From NCBI GenBank assembly GCA_017822615.1, contig GCA_017822615.1_4530.1: a stretch of 64,000 nt of DNA; one strand, given 5' to 3'. Source of the DNA: a phage. Below, piece by piece: positions 27,672 through 34,420 of the stretch. How positions within the stretch are numbered: position 1 is the stretch's first letter; each line of letters starts with the position of its first letter. The notes beneath the pieces were generated by a model. It did no database searches, was not told the DNA's origin, and worked only from the letters and a program-made list of their open reading frames with translations. Both the position numbers and the translations under genes were made by a program.

Positions 27672-27979
27672 TGTATAAGATTACAATTATTCAAAGTGTA
27701 GGTAATATCCGTAAAGAAGTTATCTTAGAAACAGAAGATGTTAATCTTGTTCGTGAGATTGTTCTTAAGGAAGATAACCTGCAAGCTGTAGAATCAGATG
27801 CACCGAATCTTATGGTGGATCAAGAATATTCTGAACTTCGTCGTATTTTTGAAGAGATTCAGAAGAAAGAAACACAACCGACCATAAAACCTTTTGGTCC
27901 TTATGATCCGAGCAATCCTAGCAGTCCTTGGATCATGAGAAATACGGAACCGTATACACCTTTTGAAATTACTTGTTGA
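27671..27979 (+). CDS. hypothetical protein
   Basis: ORF track. Confidence 0.55.
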   Translation: MYKITIIQSVGNIRKEVILETEDVNLVREIVLKEDNLQAVESDAPNLMVDQEYSELRRIFEEIQKKETQPTIKPFGPYDPSNPSSPWIMRNTEPYTPFEITC

Positions 27980-27986
27980 GGTGATT

Positions 27987-28568
27987 ATGGCAGAACTGTT
28001 CTATACGGGAGTTGGAAGTAGAGACATATCCGAAGAAGAGTGGGCTTTGATGGTAGGCATAGGGAAATGGCTTTCAAACCTTGGGTTTAAATTAAGGTCT
28101 GGGAAGGCAGAGGGTAGTGATTCTGCTTTTGAAACAGGTGTCCAAGAGTCTGAAAATCCTACTAACAAGGAGATTTATGTTCCTTGGGAAAATTTCAAAG
28201 GTAATCAGATTCCAGGGGATGTTATTGTTCTTGCAAAACCAGATACAATGAACTATGCTATCTCTGTGCAATGGATCAAAGATGTTCACCCAGCTTATGA
28301 AAAGCTTAAGCAGGGTGCTAGAAAATTGCACCAACGTAATGTGCATCAAGTGTTAGGTAGAGATTTGGAAAATCCTGCTCCATCCTGTTTCTTGTTGGCT
28401 TGTGCTAATACTGATAAACATGGAGATGCAAAAGGTGGAACAGCTACGGCTTGGAAGATAGCTAAAGCCAATAATGTTCCTTGTTTAAACATTCGTGGGA
28501 AAACAAAACAAGAGATTTACGATTTTCTACGACCTTTGGTAATGAGGGCAATAACAAGTGATTCCTAA
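27987..28568 (+). CDS. SLOG-superfamily (DprA/Smf- or LOG-like) Rossmann protein
   Basis: GVGSRDIS...IGKWLSNLGFKLRSGKAEGSDSAFETGV follows the GSR...SG-A-G-D-A pattern of DprA/SLOG domains. Confidence 0.45.
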   Translation: MAELFYTGVGSRDISEEEWALMVGIGKWLSNLGFKLRSGKAEGSDSAFETGVQESENPTNKEIYVPWENFKGNQIPGDVIVLAKPDTMNYAISVQWIKDVHPAYEKLKQGARKLHQRNVHQVLGRDLENPAPSCFLLACANTDKHGDAKGGTATAWKIAKANNVPCLNIRGKTKQEIYDFLRPLVMRAITSDS

Positions 28569-29070
28569 ACGTAAACGTGGTGAACAAAGAACAAACTTGG
28601 CAGAAATCTTAGATTACAACATGGTTAATGATGTGACAAAAGAAATTCTCCCTGTTGTAGAAGATATTCTTCATAGAGGGTTACGATTCTGCTCTGATCG
28701 GGTGCATTTCATGTGGACACATAAAAGTGACTCCGCTTTGAATTTCTATCCTTTGGACTATACTCTGAACAATACGGAGATGAAAGATATCAACAAATAC
28801 TTAATGGGATATAAAGATATAACAGAAACTGTTCTTGGAGAATTGGCAGAAATCTTGGCTAACGATATCCTTAGAAATATTAATAAGGCTCTTGACAGAA
28901 GCCCAGCAGGAGTAGTAGTATCTTTTGCTGTGCCAGATATGGTTAAATATGAGTCTACAATACCTAATAAAGCTTATGCCTTTCTTCGGAGAGACGTTCG
29001 TGGAAATGTGTTGGAGATGGAGTCAAACTACAAGATTGAGGAGGTTTTATGGCAGAGTTCGGATCAGTAA
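28558..29070 (+). CDS. hypothetical protein
   Basis: ORF track. Confidence 0.55.
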   Translation: MIPKRKRGEQRTNLAEILDYNMVNDVTKEILPVVEDILHRGLRFCSDRVHFMWTHKSDSALNFYPLDYTLNNTEMKDINKYLMGYKDITETVLGELAEILANDILRNINKALDRSPAGVVVSFAVPDMVKYESTIPNKAYAFLRRDVRGNVLEMESNYKIEEVLWQSSDQ

Positions 29071-29339
29071 CAAGTTTTGAAAGTAACTTCGTTACCGCTT
29101 GGGAAGCTTGGGATGAAATGGGTGTTGGGGAACTTTATTTTTACAATGTAACACTACGTCCAGAGTATGCTTACCTGGTACCAGAAGGAACAGTTCAAAT
29201 TGGCATGTATTTGTCTTCTCAAGACGGTGTTGTTCAATTTGAGTTTTATTCTAACACAACGGACAACGAATTTACATACCGCGCATTTCATGTCAACATG
29301 TCTTTAGGAGAGGAGAAATTTTATGACGACCAAGTTTAA
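29049..29339 (+). CDS. hypothetical protein
   Basis: ORF track. Confidence 0.5.
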   Translation: MAEFGSVTSFESNFVTAWEAWDEMGVGELYFYNVTLRPEYAYLVPEGTVQIGMYLSSQDGVVQFEFYSNTTDNEFTYRAFHVNMSLGEEKFYDDQV

Positions 29340-29520
29340 AACAGTAGAAGAAGCCGTAAAAGCAGCTTATGAGGCTTTAGCGGAAGCAGAGCAGTTAGCA
29401 GATGAGACTGGTAAAGGTTTCCGTTTCTCCCCTGAGTATGGGATGGGTGGTTATTATGATCCAGAAGACGAAAATGAGAACACTGGAACAAATTGGCATC
29501 CATCTTCTTTAAGTTGTTAA
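29323..29520 (+). CDS. small acidic protein, W-x-SSS-C C-terminal family member 1
   Basis: C-terminus ...TNWHPSSLSC. Confidence 0.5.
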   Translation: MTTKFKTVEEAVKAAYEALAEAEQLADETGKGFRFSPEYGMGGYYDPEDENENTGTNWHPSSLSC

Positions 29521-29531
29521 TAGGAGGTAAA

Positions 29532-29801
29532 GTGGGAATCGAAGATATCAAAGGTTATAAACCGCATACCGATGACAAAATTGGTAAAGTGAATGCTATT
29601 AAAGATGCTGAAGTTCGATTAGGATTAATCTTTGATGCTCTAATGTCTGAATTGTGGGCTGAACTGGATGATTGTGAAGATTTGGAAGAGTCTACCAATA
29701 TATCCACCCGCCTTGACCAAATTTCAATAGCAAAGACTAAGTTGAAAGAAGCTTCTATGTGGGCCTGTCGTTCCGTTTTCCAACCAGAGGAGAAATACTA
29801 A
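29532..29801 (+). CDS. hypothetical protein
   Basis: GTG 29532 after taggagg (track start 29493). Confidence 0.5.
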   Translation: MGIEDIKGYKPHTDDKIGKVNAIKDAEVRLGLIFDALMSELWAELDDCEDLEESTNISTRLDQISIAKTKLKEASMWACRSVFQPEEKY

Positions 29802-30019
29802 TGAGTGATCGTAATGTTGAAGAATTAACTGAAAAAGCCCAAGCTATTATGGCTTTAGTGGACGAACTTACAAAAGAAGCTGAAGATGCTGGTTTTGGTC
29901 TTAGTTTAGAAAATGACGCAATCTGTTTTGAAGATTGGCAATCCTCTTCTTGTTATGGTGAAGGTGATGATGGTTTCGTCGTTAATTCTCAAGGCGTTTG
30001 GCACAGTAGTAGCTGTTAA
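29801..30019 (+). CDS. small acidic protein, W-x-SSS-C C-terminal family member 2
   Basis: C-terminus ...GVWHSSSC; internal DWQSSSC; ATG 29801 after agaggag. Confidence 0.55.
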   Translation: MSDRNVEELTEKAQAIMALVDELTKEAEDAGFGLSLENDAICFEDWQSSSCYGEGDDGFVVNSQGVWHSSSC

Positions 30020-30028
30020 GGAGAGATT

Positions 30029-30301
30029 GTGGAGTCTGAAGGCGAACTGCTGATAAAAAAGAAAGTTAAAGAGATGGAACAAGCACAAAGAAAGTTTCGT
30101 AAGGAGATTGAAGAACTTTGTGAACAGTTTCAGGAACAAGCTTGGATAGGTGACTACGGTAACGGAGAAACTTATTACCCTACAGGAACGCCAGCCGCAG
30201 ATCACTATATTGATTTCATTTGTGAAGATTATGGTGTAGAGTTGGATGAAAATGGTTTAACCACAAGAGGTGTTTGGATCTCTTCTTCCTCAATGTGTTA
30301 G
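30029..30301 (+). CDS. small acidic protein, W-x-SSS-C C-terminal family member 3
   Basis: C-terminus ...GVWISSSSMC; GTG start after aaggagag. Confidence 0.55.
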   Translation: MESEGELLIKKKVKEMEQAQRKFRKEIEELCEQFQEQAWIGDYGNGETYYPTGTPAADHYIDFICEDYGVELDENGLTTRGVWISSSSMC

Positions 30302-30311
30302 TAAATAATAA

Positions 30312-30331
30312 CCCGCTTCGGCGGGTTTTTT
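30312..30331 (+). terminator. rho-independent terminator (UUCG tetraloop)
   Basis: cccgcttcggcggg followed by T6. Confidence 0.7.
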
Positions 30332-30332
30332 A

Positions 30333-30361
30333 TTGACAGGAATCTGGAAGCTTGATAAACT
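30333..30361 (+). promoter_or_regulatory. sigma70-type promoter
   Basis: TTGACA 30333-30338, 17-nt spacer, TAAACT 30356-30361. Confidence 0.6.
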
Positions 30362-30391: not shown

Positions 30392-31333
30392 ATGGTGTTA
30401 ATTGGTAGCCGTGCATTGCAAATTCATGCTATGGACATGGGAAAAGACTTGTATCGCCCTTGTGTAGATTTAGATTACCTGTGTACAGAACAAGAGTGGG
30501 AAGAATTATCAAAAATGTTCTCTCAAGAGGAGTTTGTTGAACTTGTAGAACGTAAAGGAAACAAAGGCCATGTCAAAATGATAGCTGGTGCACATTTGGA
30601 ATACGATATTGCTTCTCAAGGAGATAGCACAGAAGCTTTGATTAGTTATTGTGAAGATTCTGATGATGTTCGTCGAACTTACGCTGGACATGTTGTTGCT
30701 CCTTTAGATGTGCTCTACCTTCTTAAAATGAGTCATCGTTTTAAAAAGGATAGTCCTCACTTCTTTAAAACTATGAAAGATATTCATTTCATGCGGTCAC
30801 TGGGCGCAAAGATCCCAGAAAATCTTAAGAGTATTTATGAGTTGCGTGAGAAAGAAACATACACTTACTCTCATCCGAACTTAAACGTAAAAAGTAAAGA
30901 CTTTTTTAAAGGTGATGAGGTTCCGTATGTTTATGATCATGATTCTATCCATGAAGCAATCGCGGTAATGGATGCTCCGGCATATAAATCTTATATGAAA
31001 GATGGAAGTGAAGTTATGACCAGCAAAGAAAAGTTTTTTGCTCAACCAAAACATGTGCGCCTGTTAGGTGTTTATGAAGAAGCGTGTGTTTTGGCTTTGG
31101 AACGTTCACAAATTCCTTTCGGTGGAGAGATCGGAGGTCCAACCCCTAAGCAAAGTTTTATAATGGCTTTATCTAAAGTCTGCACATCCATCACTAGTGG
31201 TTGGTTTAGGGAATATGCTTGGGAAAACTTTTATGTTGTTATTAAGCTATATGAAAACATGGGCGAAAACGACTATGTTGAACGTTTTAAAGCTAATCAA
31301 CATGTAGTAAAGCCTTTTGAAGGAGGTTATTAA
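30392..31333 (+). CDS. hypothetical protein, possible Pol-beta-type nucleotidyltransferase fold
   Basis: N-terminal LIGSRALQ...VDLDYL loosely fits the GS...DxD nucleotidyltransferase signature (spacing atypical). Confidence 0.4.
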   Translation: MVLIGSRALQIHAMDMGKDLYRPCVDLDYLCTEQEWEELSKMFSQEEFVELVERKGNKGHVKMIAGAHLEYDIASQGDSTEALISYCEDSDDVRRTYAGHVVAPLDVLYLLKMSHRFKKDSPHFFKTMKDIHFMRSLGAKIPENLKSIYELREKETYTYSHPNLNVKSKDFFKGDEVPYVYDHDSIHEAIAVMDAPAYKSYMKDGSEVMTSKEKFFAQPKHVRLLGVYEEACVLALERSQIPFGGEIGGPTPKQSFIMALSKVCTSITSGWFREYAWENFYVVIKLYENMGENDYVERFKANQHVVKPFEGGY

Positions 31334-31334
31334 T

Positions 31335-31730
31335 ATGTGTGGATATCTTTCAGAAAGTTATTTCAAAGTGACGCATGAGGATTTAGAAAAAGCACGATTG
31401 AAACTGACAGCTATTATTGAATACTCTAATACTGTTGATCACAGATTAAAGACTACTAAAGTATCTGTTCCTTGTTGGTTAGGTTTACGGCATAAAATAA
31501 TGTCTCAACATGACCATGTTGTTCGAGAGATGCATGGTTGGTGTTGGTTTCACGATGTGGCTCTGCATTTTGGTTATATTACAGAAGAAGAGCATAGATT
31601 CTGTGAACTAACATATCGTATTCCAACCCTTCACGATTTAGATTTGTGGAAGAAAGCAAACGAGATTTTTCTTACAGAAAGTGATTGGCGTAAAGTTATG
31701 GCTTGTCTTGAATGGAGGGGTAATGAGTAA
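31335..31730 (+). CDS. hypothetical protein
   Basis: ATG 31335 after aggagg (track start 31317). Confidence 0.55.
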   Translation: MCGYLSESYFKVTHEDLEKARLKLTAIIEYSNTVDHRLKTTKVSVPCWLGLRHKIMSQHDHVVREMHGWCWFHDVALHFGYITEEEHRFCELTYRIPTLHDLDLWKKANEIFLTESDWRKVMACLEWRGNE

Positions 31731-32406
31731 AACAGTTTTGTCTATGTTTGACGGATCTGGGATCATGGTGTTACGTTATGCCGAAGCAGGTCACAAGTGT
31801 TTTTGTGTAAACGCTGATGAAGGGGATCACGGTAAATACGAGGTTAGGATGGAGCACCCAAACATAACCTATGTGAATGCCTGGATAGATTCTACATTCA
31901 ACCCTGAAGATCATGGGATACCTAAACCCGATATTATTTTTGGATTTCCACCTTGCACTATGTTAGCAGGTAGTGGTAGCAAACACGAACGCAGCACAGA
32001 GGAATTGGATGAAGCTTTAGCTAATATTCGTGTAGTGGAAGCTTTGGGTAACAAATATAATGTTCCTTGGATGATTGAGAACCCAGTAGGTAAACTTTCA
32101 ACCTTATGGCGTAAACCCGATTTTTACTTTGATCCTTATGAGTATGGTGGGTATTTGTTTGAAGAGGAAGGAAGCTTTCATCCTAAAATGCCTACCCGTG
32201 ATGGGTATACAAAGAAAACTTGTATTTGGCACGGCAATGGTTTTGTTCAACCAGTGAAGAAACCAGTAGATCATATAGGCTGCTTCTGGGGTTGGAAAAG
32301 CTTAGGTGGAGCTAGTGCAAAAACAAAACAACTTAGATCACTAACCGCACGTGGTTTTGCTCGTGCAGTGTTTTTGTCTAACAATCTTCTAGATAAGGAG
32401 AAATAA
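31723..32406 (+). CDS. small C5-cytosine methyltransferase-like protein (227 aa)
   Basis: Motif I LSMFDGSG, motif IV GFPPCT (Pro-Cys), motif VI ENPVG; no obvious target-recognition domain. Confidence 0.5.
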   Translation: MSKTVLSMFDGSGIMVLRYAEAGHKCFCVNADEGDHGKYEVRMEHPNITYVNAWIDSTFNPEDHGIPKPDIIFGFPPCTMLAGSGSKHERSTEELDEALANIRVVEALGNKYNVPWMIENPVGKLSTLWRKPDFYFDPYEYGGYLFEEEGSFHPKMPTRDGYTKKTCIWHGNGFVQPVKKPVDHIGCFWGWKSLGGASAKTKQLRSLTARGFARAVFLSNNLLDKEK

Positions 32407-33117: not shown

Positions 33118-33591
33118 ATGTTTCAAGTAAATGTCAATGTGCATAATAGTTACTCTGATTGTGAAACGTGTGGCTATAATTCATCTAATGTTGTTCGTAT
33201 TAGTGGCGATTTAGGAGAAGCTTCTTTTGGAGAAGAAGCAAGTTGCTTTAGTGGTATGGATGCAGAATGGAATGATATTGCACATTGGTTGGTGAGCAAA
33301 CTAAAAGAAAAAGAGAAACCATTTCCTACCCTGCTTGATCGTTCTCTTGTGGAAGATGCAGGTAAAGCATATGCAGACTATGCGTATGCAGACGGGAAAT
33401 ATTTGGAAGATGATAAGGCTAACCATTTGCTTTATGTTTACTATGAAGCTGAATCTGCCTACGATAATTATTATAGCATGTCTAACATCCTCCGTCTATT
33501 TGCAGAGTTTGATATTTATTTCGAAGTAGAATTTTCAGAAGATGATACTTACGAATATGATTCTTATGATCCATTTGAGGAGGATGAATAA
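33118..33591 (+). CDS. hypothetical acidic protein
   Basis: ORF track; RBS aggaggg. Confidence 0.6.
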   Translation: MFQVNVNVHNSYSDCETCGYNSSNVVRISGDLGEASFGEEASCFSGMDAEWNDIAHWLVSKLKEKEKPFPTLLDRSLVEDAGKAYADYAYADGKYLEDDKANHLLYVYYEAESAYDNYYSMSNILRLFAEFDIYFEVEFSEDDTYEYDSYDPFEEDE

Positions 33592-34391
33592 TGCCAAGAC
33601 GTGTATATTTTATTAGTGGTGCGGGACTAAGTGCTGACAGCGGAATCCAAACATTTCGCACAGAAACAGATTCTGGAAAGGCATTATGGGATGAATATGA
33701 TTTAACAGAAGTCTGTGACATTTTCAACTTCCGTGACGGTTATCAGCAAGAACAGGGTATTCCTGATGCTATGGGTGGCTTAGATGTGGAAGGATATAAC
33801 CTCTACCGTAAAACTCACGACTTCTACAATAAACGTCGCGTGGAATTAGAGAAAGTTGACCCGAATCCAGCACATCTTCAGATTGGAGAATGGTTCGAAA
33901 AATACGGTGCAGAAAGGATTATTAACATCACTACTAACGTTGACGATCTATTAGAACGCGCTGGAATCGATAGAGAAGAAATATTGCACGTTCATGGTTT
34001 CTTGCCAGAAGTTGTTGTTGATAACAAAATTATCAAAGATGTGGGTTACGCAGCTATTGATGTAGACGATTACAAATATGTGAAGCCTAATGTGGTGTTT
34101 TTTGGTGAGAATGCACCACTCTACACAGACATGTATCACAAACTGGATCAACTAACATCACAAGATATGGTTATCGTTGTAGGCTGCTCTAACCAAGTAA
34201 TCAACTTCAACTGGGAACTCTTCCCTGCCCTGAATATTGGGGTTAAGATGGTTGTAGTTAACCCAGGTTTGAATTTTGTAGAACAAACTCTCTACGAAGA
34301 ACGTGGAGTGCTTGTCTACCGAGAGAAAGCAGGAACAGTCTTCAGTGATGAAGGCTTTATCAAAATGGTTGAAGACCATTTAAACAAATAA
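33591..34391 (+). CDS. Sir2-family (sirtuin-like) protein lacking the zinc-ribbon cysteines
   Basis: ISGAGLSADSGIQTFR, ITTNVDDLLERAG, HVHG, VVFFGE, IVVGCSN match sirtuin motifs; no CxxC pairs between HG and VVFFGE. Confidence 0.75.
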   Translation: MPRRVYFISGAGLSADSGIQTFRTETDSGKALWDEYDLTEVCDIFNFRDGYQQEQGIPDAMGGLDVEGYNLYRKTHDFYNKRRVELEKVDPNPAHLQIGEWFEKYGAERIINITTNVDDLLERAGIDREEILHVHGFLPEVVVDNKIIKDVGYAAIDVDDYKYVKPNVVFFGENAPLYTDMYHKLDQLTSQDMVIVVGCSNQVINFNWELFPALNIGVKMVVVNPGLNFVEQTLYEERGVLVYREKAGTVFSDEGFIKMVEDHLNK

Positions 34392-34400
34392 ACCACTCAA

Positions 34401-34420
34401 GGGGCTTCGGCCCCTTTCTT
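34401..34420 (+). terminator. rho-independent terminator (UUCG tetraloop)
   Basis: ggggcttcggcccc followed by tttctt. Confidence 0.65.

What the first reader, a model, noticed from the sequence alone, without database searches (positions are those of the whole stretch)
29323..30301. Three tandem small acidic proteins ending in W-x-SSS-C
Three near-adjacent genes encode 65-90 aa acidic proteins whose C-termini are TNWHPSSLSC, GVWHSSSC and GVWISSSSMC; the second also has an internal WQSSSC. The conserved Trp, Ser-run and terminal Cys could be a modification or cleavage site, a metal ligand or an interaction tag. Tandem triplication suggests dosage or target diversification.
Basis: seen in the sequence. 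Interest (0 to 1): 0.5.

Follow-up and report, generated by a model that had tools for sequence, protein, structure and literature searches.

The report
Phage small-protein cassette beside a nucleotidyltransferase
The three small acidic proteins are real members of a widespread, unstudied phage protein family with an almost invariant Trp-x-Ser-Ser-x-x-Cys end, and this family nearly always sits just upstream of a toxin-like nucleotidyltransferase gene, so the two probably work together.

Summary
The window comes from a phAPEC8-like Phapecoctavirus. Genes 29323-29520 (65 aa), 29801-30019 (72 aa) and 30029-30301 (90 aa) encode acidic proteins (pI 4.05-4.4) ending in W-x-S-S..C. They are not strictly adjacent: an Acb2 anti-CBASS sponge homologue (29532-29801) lies between the first and second.

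The motif is not chance. All three match PHROG 899, whose function is unknown. An exhaustive search found 123 clusters at 50% identity. In 113 of them the end is W-x-[S/A/P]-S-S-x-x-C, with Trp at position -8.

The three genes are anciently diverged paralogues, not a recent triplication. Gene 2 belongs to a conserved subtype that carries the motif twice.

The small proteins have no Pfam, NCBIfam, PDB or literature match.

Best reading: they are partner proteins of this phage nucleotidyltransferase, acting either as acceptor substrates or as regulators through the conserved tail. No interaction has been shown.

The parts
29323..29520 (+). Small acidic protein 1 (65 aa), short type A member of the family; tail W58-H-P-S-S-L-S-C65 at nt 29494-29517
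   Evidence: ORF and GGAGAGGAG ribosome-binding site; phrog_899 1.2e-12; family HMM 2.6e-18; orthologues 75-97% identical keep the tail
29532..29801 (+). Intervening Acb2-type cyclic-nucleotide sponge homologue (89 aa). It is not a family member and is a lineage-specific insertion into the cassette
   Evidence: PF24729 Acb2_Tad1_hairpin 1.2e-19; phmmer against T4 vs.4 1.9e-43; the only other match in the ~100 loci searched is a weak one (L060, 3e-10) downstream of the nucleotidyltransferase gene, so none lies inside the cassette
29801..30019 (+). Small acidic protein 2 (72 aa), type B subtype with the motif twice: internal D-W46-Q-S-S-S-C51-Y-G-E (nt 29936-29953) and terminal W67-H-S-S-S-C72 (nt 29999-30016)
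   Evidence: phrog_899 1.4e-5; a distinct cluster present in 28 of 81 loci, always upstream of the nucleotidyltransferase gene; both motifs invariant in alignment A5; homologous to type A by hhalign, 94.4%, E 9e-8
30029..30301 (+). Small acidic protein 3 (90 aa), long type A member; G-D-Y-G-N-G-E-T-Y-Y-P turn and tail W83-I-S-S-S-S-M-C90 (nt 30275-30298)
   Evidence: GTG start with AAGGAG ribosome-binding site; phrog_899 5.1e-14; AlphaFold2 model with pLDDT 93.9, showing helix 4-34, three strands and a C-terminal turn; 47% identical to its counterpart in the T4-like Edwardsiella phage PEi20
30310..30327 (+). Terminator-like hairpin with T-run after gene 3
   Evidence: AACCCGCTTCGGCGGGTT followed by TTTTTATT
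30333..30361 (+). Sigma-70-like promoter ahead of the nucleotidyltransferase gene
   Evidence: TTGACA, 17-nt spacer, TAAACT with an extended TG, 10 of 12 matches; this is a consensus match only
30392..31333 (+). DUF7277+DUF7275 protein (313 aa): a MenT/AbiEii-like minimal nucleotidyltransferase and the conserved partner gene of the cassette

Best explanation
The three genes are members of an uncharacterised phage protein family. Its architecture is an N-terminal amphipathic helix ending in ..A-D-E-x-G, a short sheet with a Y-G-x-G-x-x-Y-x-P turn, a variable acidic linker, and a terminal G-x-W-x-[S/A/P]-S-S-x-x-Cys. One to five diverged copies form a cassette immediately upstream of a phage-specific MenT/AbiEii-like nucleotidyltransferase, and the family most likely works with that enzyme. 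My proposal is that the folded body docks on the enzyme and presents the invariant tail to its catalytic cleft. The preferred sub-mechanism (about 0.35) is that a tail Ser hydroxyl or the Cys thiol accepts a nucleotidyl or phosphoryl group. Several distinct paralogues would then be substrates of one enzyme through one shared tail. The alternative sub-mechanism (about 0.30) is that the tail acts as a pseudo-substrate plug and the proteins are MenA1-like regulators or specificity subunits. What is shown: the family, the conservation of the motif, the gene linkage, the nucleotidyltransferase fold and its catalytic motif, and restriction to phages. What is inferred: physical interaction, entry of the tail into the active site, any covalent modification, and the biological target (tRNA 3' ends by analogy with MenT, or host takeover or counter-defence).
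Against: There is no evidence of interaction or modification. In this window a terminator-like hairpin and a promoter-like site separate gene 3 from the enzyme gene, and in other phages up to about 1.6 kb and unrelated small genes intervene. AlphaFold2 places the tail inside the monomer fold (strand 82-85, turn 86-89, block pLDDT 86) rather than as a free tail. The distance from the Ser pair to Cys differs between subtypes (SSxxC, SxC, SSC), which argues against chemistry with precise geometry. The enzyme is mildly acidic (pI 5.7), so simple charge complementarity with acidic partners is absent. It matches no DUF1814 model by sequence. Six of the 80 enzyme-anchored loci show no candidate small gene within 4 kb. 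Distant enzyme homologues in actinophages and KVP40-like phages lack the family.
Confidence: 0.62

Rival explanations
1. The small proteins are independent host-directed effectors, for example acidic mimics or inhibitors of a host or defence protein. Their position next to the nucleotidyltransferase gene would then reflect only a shared accessory-gene island that moves between large virulent phages.
For: They are small, acidic and lie in an early-type accessory region, with an Acb2 anti-CBASS gene inserted among them here and SIR2, methylase and phosphatase genes nearby. A terminator and promoter separate them from the enzyme gene in this window. T4 lacks both genes in the 40-89 kb region examined, consistent with dispensable accessory functions.
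Against: The linkage survives across phage families whose other neighbours all differ. Orientation is always the same and the order is almost always the same. Acb2 is inside the cassette only in this lineage. No fold or sequence similarity to any known anti-defence protein or DNA mimic was found.
Confidence: 0.2
2. The W-x-S-S-x-x-C end is purely a structural element of a tiny fold, packing against the Y-G-x-G turn, or an oligomerisation or metal-bridging element using one Cys per subunit. It would have no role as a site acted on by an enzyme.
For: AlphaFold2 builds the tail into the fold with high confidence. In type B the internal W-x-S-S-x-C is directly followed by Y-G-E, which suggests that the two motifs are neighbours in space. 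About 5% of members tolerate 1-3 residues after the Cys.
Against: Invariance of two Ser and a lone Cys over this range of divergence, where the rest of the protein is 25-35% identical, is unusual for packing residues. 63 of 123 members have a single Cys and there is no conserved His, so no intramolecular metal site or disulfide is possible. This reading does not explain the gene linkage, although it is compatible with it.
Confidence: 0.12
3. The proteins are RiPP-like precursors. A tail Ser would be activated and eliminated to dehydroalanine, and the terminal Cys would add to it to form a C-terminal lanthionine or AviCys-type ring. The S-x-x-C-COOH spacing resembles that of epidermin-type AviCys (from my own knowledge).
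For: Type A has Ser at -4 and Cys at -1. There are several tandem 'precursor' genes beside one enzyme.
Against: No LanB/LanM/LanKC/LanD-like or other RiPP enzyme is conserved nearby. The Ser-to-Cys spacing varies (SSxxC, SxC, SSC). The whole 65-100 aa chain is predicted to be a compact domain rather than a leader plus core. There is no export or protease gene.
Confidence: 0.04
4. The shared ending of three unrelated small ORFs is a chance resemblance.
For: None after testing.
Against: HMM E-values of 1e-12 to 1e-18, 123 representative clusters, invariant motif columns, and profile-profile homology of the divergent copy.
Confidence: 0.01

Closest known systems
MenA1-MenT1 (MenAT1) toxin-antitoxin pair of Mycobacterium tuberculosis (PMC10435456, PMC11375011)
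   Different: The module is found in phages, not in chromosomal toxin-antitoxin loci: only 9 hits in 185,579 species genomes, all on MAG contigs. There are one to five diverged small genes instead of one. The small proteins have an invariant W-x-S-S-x-x-C end and a fold with no PDB match. The enzyme has no DUF1814 sequence match, carries an extra His/Asp-rich helical region, and lacks a conserved Ser/Thr at the MenT auto-phosphorylation position. Toxicity and tRNA activity are untested.
AbiEi-AbiEii and MenA3/4-MenT3/4 (COG5340 antitoxin plus DUF1814 nucleotidyltransferase)
   Same: Two-gene layout with the nucleotidyltransferase second; related enzyme fold.
   Different: [quoted passage not shown] Nothing similar exists here. 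The PADLOC defence-system models do not match either gene.
HEPN-MNT type VII toxin-antitoxin systems and GlnD/GlnE-type protein nucleotidylyltransferases (from my own knowledge)
   Same: These are nucleotidyltransferase-fold enzymes that nucleotidylylate a hydroxyl of a partner protein, encoded adjacent in the MNT case. This is the precedent for the 'acceptor substrate' reading. The structural neighbours LnuA and ANT(2'') also nucleotidylylate hydroxyl groups.
   Different: Those enzymes modify Tyr, not Ser or Cys, and no HEPN domain was detected here. No modification has been shown.
PHROG 899, and Pfam DUF7277/DUF7275
   Same: The three proteins match phrog_899. The partner enzyme matches both Pfam DUFs above their thresholds.
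   Different: These are unannotated bins with no assigned function. Full-text searches for DUF7275, DUF7277, PF23940 and PF23942 found no paper; searches for phrog_899 and motif strings found none that concerns this family.

Membership tests
PHROG 899 / W-x-S-S-x-x-C small-protein family (defined here) | Significant profile match over the C-terminal ~75 residues | tested here: met
   phrog_899 E-values 1.2e-12, 1.4e-5 and 5.1e-14; own HMM about 1e-18 for genes 1 and 3; gene 2 through hhalign of its subtype against type A, 94.4%, E 9e-8
PHROG 899 / W-x-S-S-x-x-C small-protein family (defined here) | Terminal W-x-[S/A/P]-S-S-x-x-C with Trp at -8 and Cys as the last residue | tested here: met
   Genes 1 and 3 fit exactly. 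Gene 2 has the shortened type B form W-x-S-S-S-C, which is conserved in 14 of 14 type B sequences
PHROG 899 / W-x-S-S-x-x-C small-protein family (defined here) | Located upstream, on the same strand, of a DUF7277/DUF7275 gene | tested here: met
   Window 29323-30301 followed by 30392-31333; general rule 17 of 17 and 67 of 80 loci
MenT / AbiEii (DUF1814) nucleotidyltransferase toxins (partner enzyme) | Pol-beta-type motif G[GS]...D-x-D plus a third carboxylate | tested here: met
   G5, S6, D26, D28 and E70 are invariant in 24 homologues
MenT / AbiEii (DUF1814) nucleotidyltransferase toxins (partner enzyme) | Overall bi-lobed MenT fold | tested here: met
MenT / AbiEii (DUF1814) nucleotidyltransferase toxins (partner enzyme) | Sequence match to the DUF1814/AbiEii models | tested here: not met
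   Pfam scan at E up to 10 lists only DUF7275, DUF7277 and a chance hit; PADLOC finds none; profile search against PDB sequences finds none
MenT / AbiEii (DUF1814) nucleotidyltransferase toxins (partner enzyme) | C-terminal motifs III (Lys) and IV (Asp) forming the catalytic site | tested here: inconclusive
   K112 and D130 are invariant with spacing similar to MenT1 K137/D152, but their structural equivalence was not checked residue by residue
MenT / AbiEii (DUF1814) nucleotidyltransferase toxins (partner enzyme) | Growth toxicity and addition of nucleotides to tRNA 3' ends | not testable with these tools
   Needs expression and tRNA 3'-end sequencing
MenA1-type short antitoxin | Sequence or fold similarity to MenA1 | tested here: not met
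MenA1-type short antitoxin | Neutralises the cognate nucleotidyltransferase by binding at the active site | not testable with these tools
Lanthipeptide / AviCys RiPP precursors | Adjacent dehydratase/cyclase (LanB/C, LanM, LanKC/L) or LanD decarboxylase | tested here: not met
   Only the nucleotidyltransferase is conserved in the neighbourhood
Acb2/Tad1 nucleotide sponges | Match to PF24729 or a related model | tested here: not met
   Only the intervening gene 29532-29801 matches; the three small proteins have no Pfam hit
Cys-based metal-binding mini-domains (zinc ribbon, rubredoxin-like) | Three or four conserved Cys/His ligands in one chain | tested here: not met
   63 of 123 representatives have one Cys; there is no conserved His

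The most novel reading that the evidence does not exclude
Large virulent phages carry a dedicated protein-nucleotidylylation system. A MenT-like nucleotidyltransferase would covalently load a nucleotide, or prime a short nucleotide chain, onto the invariant Ser-Ser/Cys tail of up to five different small acidic carrier proteins. The resulting protein-nucleotide conjugates would be used for host takeover or to counter nucleotide- or tRNA-based immunity. This would be a new class of enzyme-substrate module and a new Ser/Cys-linked protein modification in phage biology.
Probability: 0.25. Interest if true: 0.85.

Novelty: new variant of a known kind. Interest (0 to 1): 0.62.

Why it matters
The enzyme gene is present in 715 of 50,697 phage records, about 1.4%. 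These include T4-like, rV5/phAPEC8-like, Otagovirus, ackermannvirus and jumbo phages of Escherichia, Klebsiella, Acinetobacter, Pseudomonas and Aeromonas, many of which are used for therapy. It is essentially absent from cellular genomes.

MenT/AbiEii enzymes are known only as bacterial toxins and abortive-infection effectors that block tRNAs. A phage-borne relative with its own conserved multi-copy small partners suggests three possibilities. Phages may have adopted this chemistry as a weapon. They may use it to repair or pre-empt tRNA-directed immunity. Or it may be a protein-modification system.

The invariant tail gives a precise mutational and mass-spectrometric handle, so the question can be tested directly with a few constructs.

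Tried and rejected
- **Family libraries:** Pfam, NCBIfam and PADLOC scans of the three proteins, plus Pfam on 116 family members and NCBIfam on seven, gave nothing meaningful.
- **Literature:** Searches for YGMGG, phrog_899, the motif strings, DUF7275/DUF7277, and phage-encoded MenT/AbiEii found nothing relevant.
- **Locus search with the full family alignment:** A back-translated YGMGGTYYP pattern was used instead.
- **T4 counterpart:** The 40-89 kb region of T4 has neither the family nor the enzyme. The gene at the syntenic position (e.2) is not a member, and tk.1 gives only a weak partial match.
- **Acb2 as a conserved partner:** Rejected. It lies inside the cassette only in this lineage.
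- **The upstream 170-aa ORF ending LWQSSDQ as a fourth member:** The family HMM finds no relationship.
- **Bacterial toxin-antitoxin or defence origin:** Rejected. Only 9 MAG contigs in 185,579 genomes carry the enzyme.
- **HD or HEPN assignment for the His/Asp-rich C-terminal half of the enzyme:** No sequence support. Left as an open remark.
- **tRNA-gene proximity:** tRNA genes lay within the fetched flanks in 5 of 21 loci scanned, and there are none in the window. This is too weak to use.

Full report
**Source and anatomy**

The region is 99% identical to Phapecoctavirus genomes (phAPEC8, ESCO13, ESCO37 and others). In those records every gene here is annotated as 'hypothetical protein'.

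On the + strand the region contains, in order:
- gene 1, 29323-29520, 65 aa
- an Acb2/Tad1-hairpin gene, 29532-29801 (PF24729, 1.2e-19)
- gene 2, 29801-30019, 72 aa from the ATG that overlaps the Acb2 stop codon
- gene 3, 30029-30301, 90 aa, GTG start
- a terminator-like hairpin, 30310-30327
- a promoter-like site, 30333-30361
- a 313-aa DUF7277+DUF7275 gene, 30392-31333

The three small proteins have pI 4.05-4.40 and end in TNWHPSSLSC, GVWHSSSC and GVWISSSSMC. Gene 2 also has an internal WQSSSC.

**The motif defines a real family**

All three proteins match the C-terminal third of phrog_899, whose function is unknown. None matches Pfam or NCBIfam.

A word-indexed search found close orthologues plus relatives in T4-like phages such as Edwardsiella PEi20 and Enterobacter Entb_45. 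All of these keep the ending.

An exhaustive HMMER search of 1.84 billion representatives found 123 clusters with E <= 1e-3. Almost all are 65-175 aa, and the match nearly always runs to the last residue.

In 113 of the 123 the end is W-x-[S/A/P]-S-S-x-x-C, with Trp exactly at -8. In a 116-sequence alignment W, S, S and C are invariant, and a Y-G-x-G-(x)2-Y turn is nearly invariant. The information content per column peaks at these positions.

Of 152 distinct family ORFs in phage loci, 144 end exactly in Cys. A few carry 1-3 extra residues. In the window the motif's Ser codons come from both codon families, so the constraint is on the protein.

**The copies are old paralogues, not a recent triplication**

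The three proteins are 29-35% identical to each other. Each has a closer counterpart elsewhere:
- gene 1 is 62% identical to a metagenomic cluster
- gene 2 is 47-53% identical to proteins of T4-like phages
- gene 3 is 47% identical to the PEi20 protein

Gene 2 belongs to a separate subtype, type B, with two invariant motifs: an internal D-W-x-[S/N]-S-x-C-Y-G-E and a terminal W-x-x-S-S-C. Type B is homologous to the main type by profile-profile comparison (94.4%, E 9e-8).

**Structure of the small proteins**

**The key finding is gene linkage**

I scanned every locus recovered through the small protein. These included annotated phages, contigs encoding family members, and a back-translated YGMGGTYYP pattern. 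In all 17 loci with enough downstream DNA, the family gene or genes lie directly upstream of a DUF7277/DUF7275 gene on the same strand.

As an independent test I collected 80 IMG/VR loci using the enzyme as the anchor.
- 67 have 1-5 family ORFs upstream, and every family ORF found is on the enzyme's strand.
- Seven of the 13 remaining loci have divergent ORFs ending in W..S..C.
- In an all-against-all clustering of every ORF within 4 kb, only the small family (68 of 81 loci) and type B (28 of 81) are conserved with the enzyme. A 66-locus minus-strand cluster is antisense ORFs inside the conserved enzyme gene.
- Every other gene cluster is lineage-specific, occurring in 25 loci or fewer.

The same arrangement appears in 6 of 9 MAG contigs. 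T4 lacks both genes in the region examined. Acb2 is inside the cassette only in this lineage.

**The partner enzyme**

Twenty-four homologues, down to 51% identity, keep G5-S6, D26-x-D28 and E70. This is the Pol-beta nucleotidyltransferase signature. They also keep K112, D130 and a His/Asp-rich helical region.

The enzyme occurs in 715 of 50,697 phage records. It occurs in only 9 of 185,579 species genomes, and all 9 are MAG contigs.

**Interpretation**

MenT toxins add nucleotides to tRNA 3' ends. MenT1 is neutralised by a 68-aa protein encoded upstream, which blocks the active site (PMC10435456). That protein also induces auto-phosphorylation of an active-site Thr (PMC11375011). The phage module has the same layout and the same enzyme fold.

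It differs from MenAT1 in four ways:
- it is found only in phages
- the small partner belongs to an unrelated family with an invariant tail
- one to five diverged partners are kept
- the enzyme lacks a conserved Ser/Thr at the MenT auto-phosphorylation position

I conclude, with confidence about 0.6, that the small proteins function with this enzyme through their tail. Within that conclusion I slightly prefer the acceptor-substrate reading. It explains why many paralogues share one tail, why the invariant residues are hydroxyls and a thiol, and why the enzyme's structural neighbours modify hydroxyl groups. The alternative is a plug or regulator reading analogous to MenA1. All steps beyond linkage, fold and conservation are inference.

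Several observations count against this reading:
- the tail is modelled as part of the fold
- the Ser-to-Cys spacing varies between subtypes
- a terminator separates the genes in this window
- the enzyme is not basic
- six of the 80 enzyme-anchored loci have no candidate partner nearby

**Rivals**

- Independent host-directed effectors that merely share an accessory island with the enzyme: 0.2.
- A purely structural or oligomerisation motif: 0.12. This is compatible with the linkage but does not explain it.
- A RiPP-like thioether: 0.04. No RiPP enzyme is conserved nearby and the spacing varies.
- Chance: refuted.

**Novelty**

No paper in the searchable library mentions either DUF, and none found with the PHROG number or the motif strings concerns this family. 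The family and its linkage to a MenT-like enzyme therefore appear to be undescribed. Structurally it is a new variant of the 'small partner plus minimal nucleotidyltransferase' theme. If the tail is covalently modified, it would be a new kind of system.

Noticed in passing
window 29532-29801 (+): An Acb2-type anti-CBASS cyclic-nucleotide sponge homologue lies between small-protein genes 1 and 2 (PF24729 1.2e-19; phmmer 1.9e-43 to T4 vs.4). Public records of this phage group annotate it only as a hypothetical or 'phage' protein. Across about 100 related loci no Acb2 homologue lies inside the cassette; the only other match is a weak one in L060, downstream of the enzyme gene.
   Followed up: partly
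window 28558-29070 (+): This 170-aa ORF (phrog_8569) ends in ...EEVLWQSSDQ, which resembles the motif but lacks the Cys. The family HMM finds no relationship.
   Followed up: partly
window 27963-28568 (+): A DprA-like/SLOG-type protein (phrog_768, 2.3e-62) lies just upstream of the block. Pfam gave no hit at E <= 0.01.
   Followed up: no
L113 3600-3938, L114 3603-3896, L115 2411-2707: Distant, shorter homologues of the nucleotidyltransferase (251-263 aa) in Streptomyces phage Annadreamy, Gordonia phage Smoothie and Vibrio phage phi-pp2 have no W..SS..C neighbour. Each has instead an adjacent ~100-aa ORF ending in a '...YF.KTGYYDS...VEV.P.Q.TIT.YV'-like sequence, with weak mutual similarity (best E 1.5e-4). 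This may be an alternative small partner family.
   Followed up: partly
L020 401-2649, L080 2612-3564, L084 5290-5364, L106 4894-4981, L114 4853-6442; L023 13812-14834; L113 1034-1693: tRNA genes lie within the fetched flanks of the module in 5 of 21 loci scanned. An RNA ligase gene is directly downstream of the enzyme gene in Ralstonia phage RSP15 and two genes upstream of it in Annadreamy. This is a weak hint of an RNA or tRNA connection. The window itself has no tRNA gene.
   Followed up: partly
L017 20347-20550 (T4 tk.1) and L017 7824-8132 (T4 49.3): T4 lacks the family in the region examined, but tk.1 weakly resembles the '..F.F..YG..TYY' segment (E 0.004 among 408 ORFs). The 49.3 ORF aligns loosely, including 'EGKWIP' (E 0.69, not significant).
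   Followed up: no
window 31681-32406 and about 33588-34403 (+): A DNA methylase and a SIR2-family gene lie downstream of the enzyme gene (annotation of phAPEC8_ev052). SIR2 also lies a few kb downstream of the enzyme homologue in a related contig (L018) and in Vibrio phage phi-pp2 (L115).
   Followed up: no
window 30392-31333, residues ~105-300: The DUF7275 half of the enzyme has many invariant His/Asp/Cys residues (H115, H123, H161, D182-H183-D184, H187, C264 in CTSITSG). This suggests a second metal-dependent site. No HD or HEPN model matches by sequence.
   Followed up: partly
H2/H86 (MG065650.1), H6 (OP562383.1): Records labelled 'Campylobacter phage B15' and 'Acinetobacter phage vB_AbaM_ABPW7' are 99% identical to this E. 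coli Phapecoctavirus region. The host labels in those records look doubtful.
   Followed up: no
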